DNA of 64,000 nucleotides, taken from NCBI GenBank assembly GCA_964513505.1, contig CAZENL010000003.1:8-64007 (forward strand), read 5' to 3'. Shown piece by piece: positions 1,707 through 5,052 of this stretch (within the stretch, counting starts at the first letter, position 1; each line of letters opens with the position of its first letter). Under the pieces are notes generated by a model that saw only the letters and a list, made by a program, of their open reading frames with translations, searched no databases and was not told where the DNA came from. Both the position numbers and the translations under genes were made by a program. This DNA comes from an uncultured Anaerolineaceae bacterium. GTDB taxonomy: Bacteria; Chloroflexota; Limnocylindria; Limnocylindrales; CSP1-4.

Positions 1707-2351
1707 CTACAGACGCCCCGGTTCGCTCGAGGCGTCGGCGGCACGCTCCATCGCCGGCACTCCCGCGGCGCGGCCGCTGACGAAGTCGTAGACCAGGCTG
1801 CTCCACGTCTCCAGCCGATCGTAGACGCGCAGCACCTCGCTCGGAGCCACGAACGCGCCCTCCAGCTTGTGCGTCTCGCGGATGGCCACCTCCCGGCCGT
1901 CCGCCTCCGCCACGCAGACGATGCCGAGGTGGACCTGGCCGACCGGGTCCGAGTCGTCGTTGAGCAGGCCGATCACGCGAAAGCTGGGCGTGAAATCGGC
2001 CACCAGCTCCTCCGACCACTCGCGTAACAAGCCGCCTTCTACCCCGCCGTCCTCCGGGTTGACGTGGCCGCCCACGCCGATCGACCAGCGCTCGTGCAAG
2101 CGCGCATCGGTGCCGGCGCTGGTGCGACGCATCAGGTAGATCCGGCCGCGGTCGCGCAGCACCAGGTACGGGATGACCTGCTTCCAGGACGGGTCCTGCT
2201 CCACGTCGCCGCGCGCGCGGTACGTGCCCTCGGCCGCGATGCGGTCCAGGTACGGCTGCACATTCCCATACATGACCCCGCGCCAGGTGGCTCCGCCAAG
2301 CAGCCGCGAGCGTGGCAGCCCCAGCACCAACTCGGTGGTTGCGTCACTCAT
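1707..2351 (-). CDS. NUDIX hydrolase family protein
   Basis: This is the ORF 1707..2441 trimmed to the ATG at 2351 (MSDATTELV...). It carries a Nudix box, GGHVNPEDGGVEGGLLREWSEELV (G-x5-E-x7-REW-x-EE-L). Confidence 0.8.
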   Translation of the reverse strand: MSDATTELVLGLPRSRLLGGATWRGVMYGNVQPYLDRIAAEGTYRARGDVEQDPSWKQVIPYLVLRDRGRIYLMRRTSAGTDARLHERWSIGVGGHVNPEDGGVEGGLLREWSEELVADFTPSFRVIGLLNDDSDPVGQVHLGIVCVAEADGREVAIRETHKLEGAFVAPSEVLRVYDRLETWSSLVYDFVSGRAAGVPAMERAADASSEPGRL

Positions 2352-2469: not shown

Positions 2470-3831
2470 TCACATGCTCGGGACGGTCTCCATGGCCTCT
2501 TCGATCCGCGACTGCGGAAGCTCGTAGTCCTCCAGGGTTCCCGAGAGGTAGCGCTCGTACGAGGACAGGTCGAAGTGGCCGTGGCCGCTGAGGATGAAGA
2601 GGATCACCGGCGACGTGCCCTCTTCCTTGGCCTTGTTGGCGAGGTCCACGACCACGGAGATGGCGTGCGTTGGCTCGGGCGCCGGCAGGATGCCTTCGGT
2701 GCGGGCGAACAGGACGCCGGCCTCGAAGCTCTTGCGCTGGTGCACGGCATTGGCCTCGATGTGGCCATCCTCCTTGAGCAGCGAAACCAGCGGCGACATG
2801 CCGTGGTAGCGCAACCCGCCGGCATGGATCGGATCGGGCACGAAGTCGTGGCCCAACGTGTGCATCTTCACCAGCGGTGTCATCTGCGCCGTATCGCCGA
2901 AGTCGTAGCGGTACTCGCCGCGAGTCATGGAGGGCGCAGCCTCTGGCTCCACGGCGATGACGCGGTACTTCTTGCCCTCGCGGAAGCTGCGACCCAGCCA
3001 TGGGAACGCGAGGCCGGCGAAGTTGGAGCCGCCGCCGGCACAGCCCACGATCACATCCGGCTCTTCGCCCGCCATGGCCATCTGCTCGATCGATTCCAGG
3101 CCGATGACCGACTGGTGCAGCAGCACGAAGTCGAAGACGGAGCCCAGCGAGTACTTGGTCCCTGGATGCGTGACCGTGTCCTCGATGGCCTCGCTGATGG
3201 CGATTCCCAGCGAGCCGGTGTGGTCGGGGTGCTCGGAGAGGATCTTCTTCCCGTATTCCGTGTCGAAGCTCGGGCTTGGCACCACCTGGGCGCCATACGT
3301 CTCCATCAGGATCCGGCGATACGGCTTCTGGTCGTAGCTGGCCCTGACCATGTAGACCTTGACTTCCAGGTCGAACGCAGCTCCCGCGAACGCGAGCGCC
3401 GAGCCCCACTGGCCTGCGCCCGTCTCCGTCGCCAGGCGCGTCACGCCCTCCTGCTTGTTGTAGAACGCCTGCGGAATCGCGGTATTGGGCTTGTGGCTGC
3501 CGGATGGGCTGCCGCCCTCGTACTTGTAATAGATGTGCGCGGGCGTGCCCAACGCCTTCTCCAGCCGATGCGCGCGGTAGAGCGGTGAGGGACGGTAGAG
3601 CGCGTAGACCTGGCGGACAGGCTCCGGGATCTCGATCTCGCGGTCGGTGCTGACGACCTGCTTGATCAGCTCCATGGGGAACAGCGGTGCCAGGTCCGCG
3701 GGCCCGATGGGCTGGCCGGTGCCAGGATGCAGGACGGGCGGTGCCGGCTTCGGCAGGTCCGCCGCGATGTTGTACCAGCTGCGCGGAATGCGATCCTCGG
3801 TCAGCACGTACTTGGTCTGTTGCGTGGCCAT
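2470..3831 (-). CDS. trpB2: TrpB2-type tryptophan synthase beta-subunit-like PLP enzyme
   Basis: This is the ORF 2470..3963 trimmed to the ATG at 3831 (MATQQTKYVLTEDRIPRSWYNI...). It has the PLP-lysine motif KYEGGSPSGSHKPNTA and reads as a TrpB2-family sequence over its full length. Confidence 0.93.
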   Translation of the reverse strand: MATQQTKYVLTEDRIPRSWYNIAADLPKPAPPVLHPGTGQPIGPADLAPLFPMELIKQVVSTDREIEIPEPVRQVYALYRPSPLYRAHRLEKALGTPAHIYYKYEGGSPSGSHKPNTAIPQAFYNKQEGVTRLATETGAGQWGSALAFAGAAFDLEVKVYMVRASYDQKPYRRILMETYGAQVVPSPSFDTEYGKKILSEHPDHTGSLGIAISEAIEDTVTHPGTKYSLGSVFDFVLLHQSVIGLESIEQMAMAGEEPDVIVGCAGGGSNFAGLAFPWLGRSFREGKKYRVIAVEPEAAPSMTRGEYRYDFGDTAQMTPLVKMHTLGHDFVPDPIHAGGLRYHGMSPLVSLLKEDGHIEANAVHQRKSFEAGVLFARTEGILPAPEPTHAISVVVDLANKAKEEGTSPVILFILSGHGHFDLSSYERYLSGTLEDYELPQSRIEEAMETVPSM

Positions 3832-4087
3832 GTGACGGACCCTCCTGTGGCTCTGCTCCGGCAATCGTCCCGGTGCCGGAAAACACGTGACCGGCCTTCT
3901 GTCCTGCCGGGACGAAAGGCCGGTCCTTCCGCGGTACCACCCGTTTTCGGCGCAACGCCGCACTCACATGGTCTGGGCTCGCGGGTCCATTCCCCATCGC
4001 CACCGTCCCGGCTTCCACCAGCCGCCGGGTCTCTGTTCCGGTTGCGCGACGGGTACTCTTCCCGGTCGCTGCCCGTCTTCAGTTGTG
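3832..4087 (-). promoter_or_regulatory. T-box riboswitch leader, probable Trp (UGG) specifier
   Basis: The minus strand contains the canonical T-box sequence AAACGGGTGGTACCGCGG (core at 3930-3942). A hairpin, CCCGGC-GGCUGGUGGAA-GCCGGG, presents UGG followed by A (UGG at 4015-4017). A terminator helix lies downstream, and the leader sits directly 5' of trpB2. Confidence 0.8.
3879..3925 (-). terminator. T-box terminator helix
   Basis: On the minus strand, GACCGGCCUU...AAGGCCGGUC (arms at 3916-3925 and 3889-3898) is followed by ACGUGUUUUCC. The 5' arm overlaps the 3' side of the T-box antiterminator region. Confidence 0.6.
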
Positions 4088-4093
4088 CCTGGG

Positions 4094-4122
4094 AGTCTAG
4101 AGAGCCCCCATCGCGCCGTCAA
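4094..4122 (-). promoter_or_regulatory. Sigma-70-type promoter of the T-box/trpB2 unit
   Basis: The minus strand reads TTGACG (4117-4122), a 17-nt spacer, then TAGACT (4094-4099). Confidence 0.55.
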
Positions 4123-4158
4123 CGCGCACGAGGGCTCCCTCTCGACTCATGGAAGCGT

Positions 4159-4443
4159 TCAGTAGCTGGACGATTCCGCCTCATTTGCGATCCAGACCGA
4201 CGGCGCGGAGTCCACACCGGCGCGGTGCATCACGTCCGGCAGCGACGGATCCTGGGCGAACGCCTGCGCCCCGGCCAGCGTCGCGAAGTCGTTCACCACG
4301 ATCACCATGTTCGGATCGTCGGCCGCCCGATTGATCGCGTGGCCCGTGGCGCCGTGCCCGCGCCGTACCGCCTCGTGTTCCGTGAAGACCGGATACCACG
4401 CGTCGTAATCCGCGACATGGTGCGCGACGATGACCTTGACCAT
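4159..4443 (-). CDS. Small (94 aa) alpha/beta-barrel (ABM/Dabb-like) protein of unknown function
   Basis: The ATG at 4443 has a GGAGG Shine-Dalgarno sequence 8 nt upstream. The sequence MVKVIVAHHVADYDAWYPVFTEHEAVRRGHG...DPNMVIVVNDFATLAGAQAF has the pattern of small stress or 'cyclase'-annotated proteins. It is divergent from the MarR gene. Confidence 0.7.
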   Translation of the reverse strand: MVKVIVAHHVADYDAWYPVFTEHEAVRRGHGATGHAINRAADDPNMVIVVNDFATLAGAQAFAQDPSLPDVMHRAGVDSAPSVWIANEAESSSY

Positions 4444-4496
4444 GGAACGTGCCTCCGTCCACTTGACTGGGTCGACCGGACCCCATCCGCCGGTCC

Positions 4497-4513
4497 TTAG
4501 GGCCCTAACTATA
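4497..4513. promoter_or_regulatory. Perfect 12-bp palindrome TTAGGGCCCTAA abutting a TATAGT -10 (candidate MarR operator)
   Basis: The palindrome spans 4497-4508. On the minus strand TATAGT (4508-4513) lies immediately 5' of it, in the 102-bp divergent intergenic region between the small barrel-protein gene and the MarR gene. Confidence 0.5.
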
Positions 4514-4545
4514 TGCTACGGCCCCATATTGTCAACACCCTTATC

Positions 4546-5052
4546 ATGTCTTCCGTGACGAAGATCGAGATGCCGGACGACTTCTACGCGCAGACGCCGG
4601 ACGGCGATGCGCGGGCCACCGAAGCCGTGATGAACACGATTCGCACGGCGGACATGCTGTTCGACCGAATTGGCCGGCTGCTCCGTCCCCTGGGGGTGAG
4701 CGCGGCCGGAGGCCTGGTGCTCGGTCAGCTGCGCGACCGGGGTCCCATGTCGCCGTCGGAGCTGGGTGATCGGCTCATCGTCACGCGCGCAACGGTGACC
4801 GGACTGCTCGATTCCCTGGAACGTCGCGGGTTCATCCAGCGCGTGGCACACCCGACCGATCGCCGCAGTCTGGTGGTCGAGATCACGGCCGACGGGCTGG
4901 AGGTCCTCCAGCGCCTGCGGACCCTGGTGCACCACCACGAGAAGGCCTGGATGTCCGCCTTCGGCAACGACGAATTGGGCCGCTACATCCAGGTGCTCCA
5001 TCGCATCCAGGACTCCCTGTCGGCGACGGCGGAGGACGACTCGCCCGGCTGA
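4546..5052 (+). CDS. MarR family transcriptional regulator
   Basis: A winged-helix region, SPSELGDRLIVTRATVTGLLDSLERRGFIQRVAHPTDRRSLVVEITADG, supports the call. The start is either the ATG at 4546 or the ATG at 4513, and I cannot resolve which. Confidence 0.88.
   Translation: MSSVTKIEMPDDFYAQTPDGDARATEAVMNTIRTADMLFDRIGRLLRPLGVSAAGGLVLGQLRDRGPMSPSELGDRLIVTRATVTGLLDSLERRGFIQRVAHPTDRRSLVVEITADGLEVLQRLRTLVHHHEKAWMSAFGNDELGRYIQVLHRIQDSLSATAEDDSPG

What the first reader, a model, noticed from the sequence alone, without database searches (positions are those of the whole stretch)
3832..4122. Trp-specific T-box leader controlling a stand-alone trpB2
Seen on the minus strand:
- The promoter reads TTGACG-17-TAGACT.
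- A hairpin, CCCGGC[GGCUGGUGGAA]GCCGGG, exposes UGG followed by a purine.
- The invariant T-box sequence GGGUGGUACCGCG is present.
- A competing terminator (GACCGGCCUU...AAGGCCGGUC followed by UGUUUU) precedes the SD-ATG of trpB2.
- The specifier lies only about 75 nt from the T-box, so the leader is of the short, glyQS-like type without stem II. The specifier appears to sit in or near a terminal loop, as described for shortened actinobacterial T-boxes.

Inference: TrpB2 (indole salvage) would be switched on by uncharged tRNA-Trp.
Basis: partly seen in the sequence, partly recalled or inferred. Interest (0 to 1): 0.6.

Follow-up and report, generated by a model that had tools for sequence, protein, structure and literature searches.

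The report
Tryptophan T-box switch before trpB2

Summary
The T-box is real. Rfam RF00230 matches window 3905-4078 (minus strand) at 73.8 bits, E 4e-14 for the whole window, but below the curated cut-off of 93. The gene behind it is a TrpB2-type synthase.

The true specifier is a different UGG (3987-3989, GAA-UGG-A), so the Trp call is right but for the wrong reason. UGG is at this position in 39 of 39 related leaders.

The organism is a Limnocylindrales-like Chloroflexota, not an actinobacterium.

Most relatives keep them, and the module was lost at least twice. The short form is under purifying selection.

A strong terminator (-32.8 kcal/mol) competes with a weak antiterminator (-5.5 kcal/mol). 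It is followed by ACGUG-UUUU.

A peat metatranscriptome contig covers the leader exactly and breaks at the first U. This fits premature termination.

A T-box before a 'trpB-like' gene in Chloroflexi was reported in 2008, so the kind is known. [quoted passage not shown]

The parts
4094..4122 (-). Sigma-70-type promoter: TTGACG (4117-4122), 17-nt spacer, TAGACT (4094-4099). The predicted transcription start is near 4087.
   Evidence: the only site in the region, with 0 expected in shuffles. The same TTGAC(G/C)-17-TAGA(C/G)T is kept at the same distance from Stem I in L001, L032, L056, L062, L093 and L109.
3976..4072 (-). Full-length Stem I. It contains the K-turn/GA motif (4061-4072 with 3976-3985), the 5' side of the specifier loop AAGAGUA (4054-4060), the AG bulge ACAGAGA (4030-4036) and the distal hairpin (4007-4029).
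   Evidence: RF00230 alignment. Covariation on 6 leaders: 96% of cells paired, 6 pairs changed on both sides, 0 of 500 shuffles as good, and slid controls at 24-47% paired.
4007..4029 (-). Stem I distal hairpin CCCGGC[GGCUGGUGGAA]GCCGGG, which docks on the tRNA elbow.
   Evidence: The model aligns it to the consensus distal loop GgUUGGUGaaA at posterior probability '*'. The loop motif is invariant in relatives.
3986..3992 (-). 3' side of the specifier loop, GAA-UGG-A. The specifier codon UGG (Trp) is at 3987-3989 and the conserved purine at 3986.
   Evidence: Model alignment. UGG is at this position in 5 of 5 relatives scanned with Rfam and in 39 of 39 leaders overall. The next base is A in 28, G in 9 and C in 2.
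3966..3975 (-). 10-nt linker that replaces the Stem II and IIA/B pseudoknot domain.
   Evidence: 40 model positions are replaced by 1 nt. The alignment with long-form relatives shows a clean deletion of about 110-170 nt.
3944..3965 (-). Stem III with its flanking purines: GAGUG-CGGCG UUG CGCCG-AAAA, matching the RRRxG-Stem III-AA motif.
   Evidence: The motif is as defined in PMC7583486. In relatives Stem III varies in length but keeps its pairing.
3908..3943 (-). Antiterminator: helix A1 (CGGG/CCCG), the 7-nt T-box bulge UGGUACC (UGGN with N = U), and helix A2. The T-box core is at 3930-3942.
   Evidence: Energy of the antiterminator fold is -5.5 kcal/mol. The bulge reads UGGU in 32 leaders and UGGC in 8, never A or G.
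3889..3925 (-). Terminator hairpin: 15-16 bp with loop CGGCA. Its 5' strand is the 3' strand of the antiterminator.
   Evidence: Folds at -32.8 kcal/mol. L058 and L110 carry the compensatory change CCGACC/GGUCGG.
3878..3888 (-). Tail ACGUG-UUUU-CC. The U-tract is at 3880-3883.
   Evidence: Most relatives have UUUU or UUUUU here; about 9 have a decayed tract. The RNA contig in X18 stops matching exactly at 3883.
3858..3879 (-). Second small hairpin, CCGGCA-CCGGGACGAU-UGCCGG, between the U-tract and the SD. Its function is unknown.
   Evidence: Present in all relatives as CGGCC-CCGGAACGA-GGCCG, with an A-U to C-G compensatory change. L110 has a different sequence that still forms a hairpin.
3829..3846 (-). 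SD AGGAGGG (3840-3846) and the ATG start codon (3829-3831).
   Evidence: The SD is not sequestered in the terminator-state fold. No conserved pairing partner was found in the leader.
2470..3831 (-). trpB2: a 453-aa TrpB2-type, PLP-dependent tryptophan synthase beta homolog.
   Evidence: NF009057 at 724 bits (cut-off 366) and TIGR01415 at 626.6 bits (cut-off 518.85). Canonical trpB TIGR00263 scores only 144.7 bits (cut-off 392). The best solved structures are long TrpB2-like chains 6hul_B, 4qys_B and 6hte_B.

Best explanation
Window 3832 to about 4087 (minus strand) is the leader RNA of trpB2. It is a class-typical, transcription-attenuating T-box riboswitch specific for tRNA-Trp.

Proposed mechanism:
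1. Transcription starts at the TTGACG-17-TAGACT promoter.
2. Stem I binds tRNA-Trp at two points. The anticodon CCA pairs with the specifier UGG (3987-3989). The tRNA elbow stacks on the AG-bulge/distal-loop platform (4007-4036).
3. If the tRNA is uncharged, its 3' NCCA end pairs with the UGGU bulge and stabilises the weak antiterminator (3908-3943), helped by Stem III and its purines. RNA polymerase then reads on into trpB2.
4. If the tRNA is charged, the much stronger terminator (3889-3925) forms and transcription stops in the ACGUGUUUU tail.

TrpB2, which makes tryptophan from indole and is thought to salvage indole, is therefore made when tRNA-Trp charging falls.

This copy belongs to a Limnocylindrales-type (Chloroflexota) leader family that always precedes trpB2. 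It is a derived short form: the Stem II/IIA-B domain has been deleted, giving it the glyQS architecture with a Trp specifier.

Shown here: the sequence and structure elements, their conservation and covariation, and the presence of the leader RNA in situ.
Inferred: tRNA binding, charge sensing, and termination as the regulated step.
For: - RF00230 match covering model positions 1-219, 73.8 bits, E 4e-16 locally and 4.2e-14 window-wide.
- Every core motif is in the right order: K-turn, AGUA/GAA S-turn, UGG followed by a purine, AGAGA, distal loop, RRRxG-Stem III-AA, and the T-box core with a UGGN bulge (motif definitions from PMC7583486).
- Stem I covaries: 96% of cells paired, 6 double changes, 0 of 500 shuffles as good.
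- UGG is at the specifier in 39 of 39 related leaders, followed by a purine in 37 of 39.
- The leader is followed by trpB2 in 27 of 27 metagenome copies with enough downstream sequence, and in 6 genome copies.
- The bulge reads UGGU (32) or UGGC (8), pyrimidines only. This is what a G discriminator predicts. TBDB reports that 46% of Trp T-boxes have U opposite G73.
- The terminator is at -32.8 kcal/mol against -5.5 kcal/mol for the antiterminator, and the two share a strand. The terminator shows a compensatory change in L058 and L110.
- Purifying selection on the short form: between WIN and L001, 4-fold sites in trpB2 are 52% identical. Stem I is 87% identical (91 of 105) and the antiterminator-terminator segment is 59 of 60 identical.
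- RNA: the peat metatranscriptome X18 holds a contig identical to 3883-4057. It is the only substantial RNA contig in the first 20 kb of the window, it breaks at the first U of the U-tract, and nothing lies on the trpB2 CDS. In relatives, read-through contigs into the CDS also exist.
- Precedent: a T-box before a 'trpB-like' gene in Dehalococcoides (PMC2494555).
Against: - The score is below Rfam's gathering cut-off (73.8 against 93).
- The U-tract is short (4 U) and separated from the stem by 5 nt. The simple terminator scan does not call it, and in L001, L032 and L058 the tract has decayed. Termination may therefore be weak or need a factor.
- Stem II, which normally supports the codon-anticodon pairing, is missing. 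Only glycine T-boxes are documented to function without it (PMC7583486).
- The RNA evidence rests on one low-depth assembled contig whose far side is unrelated sequence. It could be a chimera or a strain variant rather than a true 3' end.
Confidence: 0.82

Rival explanations
1. Decaying relic: after losing Stem II/IIA-B the leader no longer binds tRNA-Trp productively. It would act only as a constitutive partial terminator or an inert 5' UTR.
For: - The Rfam score is below the cut-off.
- Stem II is absent in a non-glycine T-box. Deleting the pseudoknot in an ileS T-box cut tRNA binding about 1,200-fold (PMC7583486).
- The T-box has been lost outright in most related trpB2 loci, so selection for it is not universal.
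- The U-tract has decayed in the sister leader L001.
Against: - The short form is far better conserved between WIN and L001 (87% in Stem I, 59 of 60 in the switch) than neutral 4-fold sites (52%).
- All tRNA-contacting motifs are intact.
- Stem I is full length with the elbow platform. According to the review, this binds tRNA without Stem II.
- A second, independent short form exists (L093).
Confidence: 0.1
2. Translational, or mainly translational, T-box: the switch controls ribosome access to the SD rather than transcription. This would resemble actinobacterial ileS leaders, or the T-box-bulge:RBS pairing seen in sister leaders.
For: - The U-tract is weak and offset.
- Long-form relatives carry a covarying complement of the T-box core at the RBS.
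- The host has high G+C, where canonical terminators are scarce.
Against: - In this window the SD lies 43 nt beyond the hairpin and is not part of it. It is largely unpaired in the terminator-state fold.
- Pairing between the T-box core and the RBS is no better than in shuffled sequence (-12.3 against a mean of -14.8 kcal/mol; 165 of 200 shuffles as good).
- WIN and L001 share no pairing partner for the RBS.
- The RNA contig ends at the U-tract.
Confidence: 0.06
3. One reading: a shortened Stem I whose terminal-loop UGG (within 4007-4029) is the specifier, as in truncated actinobacterial T-boxes.
For: The loop does contain UGG followed by a purine.
Against: - The covariance model aligns this loop to the distal-loop consensus shared by T-boxes of all specificities, and finds a complete specifier loop downstream.
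- The K-turn, S-turn and proximal helices covary as in a full Stem I.
- The loop motif is invariant, whereas GAA-UGG-R sits in the canonical specifier position in 39 of 39 leaders.
Confidence: 0.02

Closest known systems
T-box leaders before trpE and a 'trpB-like' gene in Dehalococcoides (Chloroflexi), Wels et al. 2008 (PMC2494555)
   Same: Same phylum, same riboswitch family, same amino-acid logic, and the same type of regulated gene (a TrpB-like synthase outside a classical trp operon).
   Different: - A different class of Chloroflexota (Limnocylindrales-like, high G+C, from soil and peat).
- This copy lacks the Stem II domain.
- I did not compare sequences with the Dehalococcoides leaders directly.
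glyQS / glyQ glycine T-boxes (B. subtilis, G. kaustophilus, O. iheyensis; PDB 4LCK, 4MGN, 6POM as cited in PMC7583486)
   Same: Same architecture: a long Stem I with K-turn and elbow platform, a short single-stranded linker, Stem III, and an antiterminator/terminator switch. There is no Stem II or IIA/B. Control is by transcription attenuation.
   Different: - The specifier is UGG (Trp), not GGC (Gly).
- The review explains the absence of Stem II in glycine leaders by the all-G/C codon-anticodon pair. Here one of the three pairs is U-A.
- The short form here is a recent derivative of a Stem II-bearing ancestor.
Actinobacterial translational ileS T-boxes (M. tuberculosis, N. farcinica; PMC7583486)
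   Same: High-G+C hosts and the same T-box discriminator core.
   Different: - Those leaders have a truncated Stem I without the distal platform, depend on Stem II, and hide the SD inside the sequestrator hairpin.
- This leader has a full Stem I, no Stem II, and its SD lies well outside the hairpin.
Trp T-boxes of Firmicutes (trpS, the trp operon, Trp transporters such as trpX; TBDB PMC7778990, PMC9382623)
   Same: UGG specifier. UGGU bulge paired to G73 of tRNA-Trp by a G-U wobble, as in 46% of Trp T-boxes in TBDB.
   Different: - The regulated gene is trpB2.
- There is no Stem II.
- The leader scores below the Rfam cut-off.

Membership tests
T-box leader (Rfam RF00230) | Covariance-model score at or above the curated gathering score (93 bits) | tested here: not met
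   73.8 bits. There is no hit at the gathering threshold, but E is 4e-16 locally and 4.2e-14 window-wide with a full-length model match. The shortfall corresponds to the 40 deleted Stem II/IIA-B positions. All relatives also score below the cut-off, at 50.5-89.4 bits.
T-box leader (Rfam RF00230) | Stem I with a K-turn, a specifier loop (S-turn AGUA/GAA, codon, then a purine), an AG bulge and a distal loop | tested here: met
   Model alignment, coordinates, and covariation with 96% of cells paired and 0 of 500 shuffles as good.
T-box leader (Rfam RF00230) | Conserved T-box sequence forming an antiterminator with a 7-nt UGGNACC bulge, mutually exclusive with a terminator or sequestrator | tested here: met
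   AACGGGUGGUACCGCG at 3930-3945. The antiterminator (-5.5 kcal/mol) and terminator (-32.8 kcal/mol) share 3908-3925.
T-box leader (Rfam RF00230) | Stem III flanked by the RRRxG ... AA purines (discriminator domain) | tested here: met
   GAGUG-CGGCGUUGCGCCG-AAAA at 3944-3965. Motif definition from PMC7583486.
T-box leader (Rfam RF00230) | The specifier matches the amino acid of the regulated gene | tested here: met
   UGG (Trp) before trpB2. This holds in 39 of 39 leaders, and trpB2 follows in 27 of 27 metagenome copies with enough downstream sequence.
T-box leader (Rfam RF00230) | The N of UGGN pairs with the discriminator base of the cognate tRNA of the same genome | not testable with these tools
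Indirect evidence: N is U in 32 leaders and C in 8, never a purine. This fits G73, as TBDB reports for Trp T-boxes.
T-box leader (Rfam RF00230) | Read-through that depends on uncharged tRNA | not testable with these tools
   This needs in vitro transcription or a reporter assay. The only indirect evidence is RNA: a leader-only contig ending at the U-tract.
glyQS-type (Stem II-less) T-box sub-class | No Stem II or IIA/B; Stem I joined to Stem III by a short linker | tested here: met
   A 10-nt linker (3966-3975) where long-form relatives have 110-170 nt containing Stem II, an S-turn and the F-box CCAGCGUUA.
glyQS-type (Stem II-less) T-box sub-class | Glycine specifier GGC upstream of a glycyl-tRNA synthetase gene | tested here: not met
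   The specifier is UGG and the gene is trpB2. It shares the glyQS leader's architecture but is not a member of that sub-class.
Actinobacterial translational T-box (ileS type) | Truncated Stem I lacking the distal platform, with the specifier near the terminal loop | tested here: not met
   Full 97-nt Stem I with an AG bulge and a distal loop.
Actinobacterial translational T-box (ileS type) | The SD is sequestered in the hairpin that competes with the anti-sequestrator | tested here: not met
   The SD (3840-3846) lies 43 nt 3' of the hairpin and is not specifically paired.
TrpB2 (TrpB-like PLP enzyme, NF009057 / TIGR01415) | Score above the family cut-offs and below the canonical TrpB1 cut-off | tested here: met
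   724 bits against a cut-off of 366, and 626.6 against 518.85. TIGR00263 scores 144.7 against 392.45. The top solved structures are TrpB2-like chains.

The most novel reading that the evidence does not exclude
The short leader may be a fully functional, naturally Stem II-less T-box for tryptophan, a non-glycine amino acid. It derives from a Stem II-bearing ancestor. The same loss happened at least twice in this clade (WIN/L001 and, independently, L093). If it works, nature has already done the deletion experiment, and Stem II/IIA-B would be dispensable whenever a long Stem I meets a sufficiently strong codon-anticodon pair (UGG:CCA).

In the same family, the long-form sisters appear to add a second control layer that I have not seen described. 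The T-box bulge UGGN pairs with an NCCA-like element placed between the SD and the start codon. This window has lost that layer.
Probability: 0.45. Interest if true: 0.5.

Novelty: new variant of a known kind. Interest (0 to 1): 0.3.

Why it matters
As a Trp T-box before trpB2 in Chloroflexota, this is ordinary. The pairing was reported in 2008 and has been seen repeatedly in this scan.

Two things give it modest value:

- **A natural test of the Stem II explanation.** The current structural explanation holds that Stem II can be absent only when the codon-anticodon helix is very strong, as in glycine leaders. Here there are natural matched pairs of leaders, long (with Stem II) and short (without), that have the same specifier, the same discriminator domain and the same regulated gene. 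They are ready-made material for testing that explanation.
- **An annotation gap.** Every member of this Limnocylindrales leader family scores below Rfam's cut-off. Standard annotation therefore misses them, and T-box regulons in soil Chloroflexota are probably under-counted.

Tried and rejected
I therefore could not list the genome's other T-boxes, find its tRNA-Trp, or check for trpA, trpB1 or trpE.
- ARAGORN on the window and on all 116 fetched loci found only tRNA-Met, tRNA-Pro and tRNA-Gly, with no tRNA-Trp.
- The idea that the conserved GUG in the tail ACGUG, which has the SD-like GAAGG 8 nt upstream, starts a leader ORF was rejected. The GUG is not conserved (ACGUU, ACGUC and ACGAG in L084, L112 and L099), and it is out of frame with trpB2.
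- Anti-RBS pairing was tested in this window's own leader and rejected.
- GGGUCC after the SD is complementary to GGACCC next to the specifier, but this is not conserved in L001. I treated it as chance.
- A looser T-box motif search over the whole of all 80 related loci found no hidden T-boxes further upstream. The one exception is an unrelated motif in L050 that Rfam did not support.
- Vitreschak 2008 and Gutierrez-Preciado 2009 are not held in the library. Their catalogues of Trp T-box targets and of Stem II-less leaders could not be checked.
- The 97 unrelated letters on the X18 contig could not be identified, because only 30 of them are shown.
Full report
**1. What is in the sequence**

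On the minus strand between the stop of a 94-aa ORF (4159) and the ATG of a 453-aa ORF (3831), I read the following in order:
- a TTGACG-17-TAGACT promoter (4122-4094);
- a long imperfect helix;
- the sequence GGGUGGUACCGCG (3942-3930);
- a GC-rich hairpin (3925-3889);
- ACGUGUUUUCC;
- a second small hairpin (3879-3858);
- AGGAGGG (3846-3840) and the ATG.

The promoter is the only sigma-70-like site in 3700-4300, and none occurred in 50 shuffles. The same simple scan called no terminator, because the U-run is short and offset.

**2. Is it a T-box?**

At Rfam's gathering threshold the window yields only a tRNA. With permissive filters, RF00230 matches 3905-4078 (minus strand) over model positions 1-219 at 73.8 bits. 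The curated cut-off is 93. E is 4e-16 in the 600-nt scan and 4.2e-14 for the whole window. The missing bits correspond to one block: 40 consensus positions (Stem II and the IIA/B pseudoknot) are replaced by a single nucleotide. Everything else aligns at high posterior probability.

**3. Where the specifier really is**

The consensus for that loop across all T-boxes is GgUUGGUGaaA, and it is preceded by the AGAGA bulge. Together these two motifs form the platform that stacks on the tRNA elbow (PMC7583486). The UGG there is a family-wide feature and carries no information about amino-acid specificity.

The specifier loop is further 3'. Its 5' side is AAGAGUA (4060-4054). Its 3' side is GAA-UGG-A (3992-3986), closed by CGGG/CCCG and the K-turn (GCAGCGA...CGAGC). 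The specifier is therefore UGG at 3989-3987, followed by the usual purine, and lies 47 nt from the T-box core. The suggestion of a terminal-loop specifier 'as in shortened actinobacterial T-boxes' is contradicted, because Stem I is full length.

**4. The gene**

The ORF 3831-2470 is a TrpB2-type enzyme:
- NF009057 scores 724 bits (cut-off 366) and TIGR01415 scores 626.6 (cut-off 518.85). Canonical trpB TIGR00263 scores only 144.7 (cut-off 392).
- Its best solved relatives are long TrpB2-like chains (6hul_B, 4qys_B, 6hte_B). TrpB1 chains score 132 bits or less.

There is no trpB paralog elsewhere in the window. The neighbours are not trp genes:
- upstream, a 94-aa ORF with no family match, a MarR regulator, a LigT-like phosphoesterase and a HAD hydrolase;
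- downstream, a 214-aa protein with no family match.

A weak terminator-like site lies between trpB2 and that downstream gene. 'Stand-alone' is therefore fair for this window.

**5. Host and relatives**

The 80 closest trpB2 loci in the species-representative genomes are almost all Chloroflexota MAGs labelled Limnocylindrales, Chloroflexia or Anaerolineae, at 72-90% protein identity. The host is therefore not an actinobacterium.

Only 6 of these 80 loci have a T-box motif just upstream of trpB2: L001, L032, L053, L056, L062, and L058, which is cut by its contig end. In many of the others, a LigT-like gene ends 70-150 nt before trpB2, which leaves no room for a leader. In L053 and L056 the T-box sits exactly between LigT and trpB2.

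On a TrpB2 tree the T-box-bearing genes form three separate clusters, and at least 3-4 gains or losses are needed to explain this. Because the antiterminator and terminator are nearly identical in all clusters, an ancestral leader with repeated loss is the simplest reading.

Rfam scores the five complete relatives at 50.5-89.4 bits, all below the cut-off. In each one it places UGG at the specifier.

**6. A wider sample**

A metagenome scan with the conserved 40-mer of the antiterminator/terminator returned 33 further copies.
- In all 27 with enough downstream sequence, trpB2 starts 105-115 nt after the T-box core.
- Across 39 leaders with Stem I, the specifier is UGG in 39. The next base is A in 28, G in 9 and C in 2.
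- The bulge is UGGU in 32 leaders and UGGC in 8, never a purine.

Only a G discriminator pairs with both U and C. TBDB reports that 46% of Trp T-boxes have U opposite the G73 of tRNA-Trp (PMC7778990).

One caution applies. The 40-mer itself is identical by construction in the metagenome set. The conservation that counts as evidence is outside it: Stem I, the specifier, the tail, the RBS and the gene.

**7. Structure support**

On six leaders the Stem I structure has 96% of cells paired and 6 pairs with changes on both sides. None of 500 shuffles reaches this, and sliding the 3' partners drops pairing to 24-47%.

Stem III varies in length but keeps its pairing and its RRRxG/AA flanks. The terminator shows a compensatory CCGACC/GGUCGG in L058 and L110.

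The terminator hairpin folds at -32.8 kcal/mol, against -5.5 kcal/mol for the antiterminator fold, and they share a strand. This is the usual arrangement, in which the antiterminator forms only when tRNA stabilises it.

**8. The short form**

Most leaders have 139-251 nt between the specifier and the T-box core. According to Rfam this stretch holds Stem II with its S-turn and the IIA/B element with the F-box.

The window (and L104, which is the same sequence), L001 and L093 have only 47-66 nt. WIN and L001 are sisters (100/100 support). L093 is nested inside a long-form clade (100/99 support) on the other side of the tree. The module was therefore lost at least twice.

The short form is not simply decaying. 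Between WIN and L001, four-fold degenerate sites of trpB2 are only 52% identical. Stem I is 87% identical (91 of 105) and the antiterminator-terminator segment is 59 of 60 identical.

The review literature attributes natural absence of Stem II to glycine T-boxes and explains it by the strong GGC:GCC pairing (PMC7583486). I found no description of a Stem II-less Trp T-box, but the two main comparative catalogues are not held in the library. I therefore cannot exclude that one has been described.

**9. Which step is regulated?**

The SD lies 43 nt beyond the hairpin. It is not specifically paired in the terminator-state fold and has no conserved partner in WIN or L001. That argues against a sequestrator mechanism here.

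The tail ACGUG-UUUU is a weak terminator by E. coli rules. Most relatives have UUUU or UUUUU, and about nine have a decayed tract.

RNA data help somewhat:
- A peat metatranscriptome (X18) contains a 272-nt contig whose 175 nt match 3883-4057 without a single difference. It then continues into 97 unrelated, low-G+C letters exactly after the first U of the tract, which is 6 nt past the stem.
- Over the first 20 kb of the window this is the only substantial RNA contig. Nothing lies on the trpB2 CDS.
- This is what a stable, prematurely terminated leader would look like. The foreign tail could be a library chimera at an RNA 3' end.
- It rests on one low-depth assembled contig, so I treat it as suggestive only.
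- A contig from a relative in another run (X25) also stops matching at 3883, but that could simply be sequence divergence. Contigs from other relatives read through into the CDS (X26, X32), so both RNA forms exist in the family.

I conclude that transcription attenuation is the most likely mechanism (about 0.7 given that it is a T-box). It may depend on a factor such as NusA or NusG.

**10. Side finding in the sisters, not in this window**

I tested this.
- In most long-form leaders the RBS reads GGAGGUACCACC(G), followed within 1-5 nt by the start codon. GGUACCACC is the exact complement of the T-box core GGUGGUACC. Duplex energies are -17 to -26 kcal/mol, and 5% or fewer of shuffles do as well in many leaders.
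- The pairing covaries. 21 UGGU leaders have GGUACCAC.
- The three independent UGGC lineages have GGUGCCAC (L086, L097), GCCACCCG (L058, L110), or GCCAAUCGAU opposite AUCGGGUGGC (L032, L103).
- In effect the RBS carries an NCCA-like element that pairs with the UGGN bulge in the way the tRNA 3' end does.
- This differs from known translational T-boxes, where the SD sits inside the hairpin that corresponds to the terminator (PMC7583486).
- The window and L001 lack this element (-12.3 kcal/mol against a shuffle mean of -14.8; 165 of 200 shuffles as good).

A second conserved hairpin between the U-tract and the SD (3879-3858 in the window) has compensatory changes and no explanation.

**11. Comparison with what is known, and verdict**

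Wels et al. 2008 already listed T-boxes before trpE and a 'trpB-like' gene in Dehalococcoides (PMC2494555). Several earlier follow-ups in this scan reached the same conclusion for other Chloroflexota windows.

[quoted passage not shown] It has the glyQS architecture without being a glycine leader. It is not of the actinobacterial translational type.

The finding is correct in substance, wrong in one anatomical detail, and largely ordinary. The Stem II-less Trp architecture, derived twice from long-form ancestors, is a modest variant that is worth a bench comparison.

Noticed in passing
L053:2890-3003, L062, L084-L115 (relatives); absent at window 3829-3850: In long-form sister leaders the RBS reads GGAGGUACCACC(G), the exact complement of the T-box core GGUGGUACC. 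It covaries with the bulge: UGGC leaders have GGUGCCAC, GCCACCCG or GCCAAUCGAU. This suggests the T-box bulge doubles as an anti-RBS by pairing with an NCCA-like element, adding a translational layer to the terminator.
   Followed up: partly
window 3858-3879 (minus strand): A conserved second hairpin lies between the U-tract and the SD. It is CCGGCA...UGCCGG here and CGGCC...GGCCG in relatives, and L110 has a different sequence with the same fold. Compensatory changes support it. Its function is unknown.
   Followed up: partly
L002-L080 versus L001, L032, L053, L056, L058, L062: The T-box is present before only a minority of closely related trpB2 genes. It occurs in three separate clusters of the TrpB2 tree. 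Elsewhere a LigT-like gene abuts trpB2 with a gap of 70-150 nt. Repeated loss of the leader is the simplest reading.
   Followed up: partly
window 4159-5052: Relative to the conserved HAD-LigT-[T-box]-trpB2 order, this genome has a MarR-family regulator gene (4513-5052, plus strand) and a 94-aa ORF with no family match (4159-4443, minus strand) inserted between LigT and the T-box promoter.
   Followed up: no
window 1707-2351 (minus strand): A 214-aa protein with no Pfam or NCBIfam match lies downstream of trpB2 here and in 51 of the 80 related loci, at 54-84% identity. A weak terminator-like site (2379-2396) separates it from trpB2.
   Followed up: no
window 3905-4078; L001, L032, L053, L056, L062: Every T-box of this Limnocylindrales family scores below Rfam's gathering cut-off (50.5-89.4 bits against 93). 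Routine Rfam-based annotation would miss the whole family.
   Followed up: yes
L002, L016, L025, L030, L033: Contigs carrying near-identical Limnocylindrales-type trpB2 are filed under MAGs labelled Patescibacteria, Acidobacteriota (Polarisedimenticolia), Eisenbacteria and Verrucomicrobiia. They nest inside the Chloroflexota clades, so binning contamination is likely.
   Followed up: no
window 3883 / run X18: The X18 metatranscriptome contig joins the leader, which ends at the first U of the tract, to 97 unrelated low-G+C letters. In RNA sense these start GUAUGGAAUCAGGAGGGAUAC, which looks like the 5' end of another mRNA with an SD. It may be a template-switch chimera marking a real RNA 3' end.
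   Followed up: partly
L050:677-689 (minus strand): A T-box-like motif GAGTGGCACCGCG occurs on the opposite strand, 1.5 kb from trpB2, in a relative without a trpB2 leader. Rfam gave no hit at E up to 0.001.
   Followed up: no
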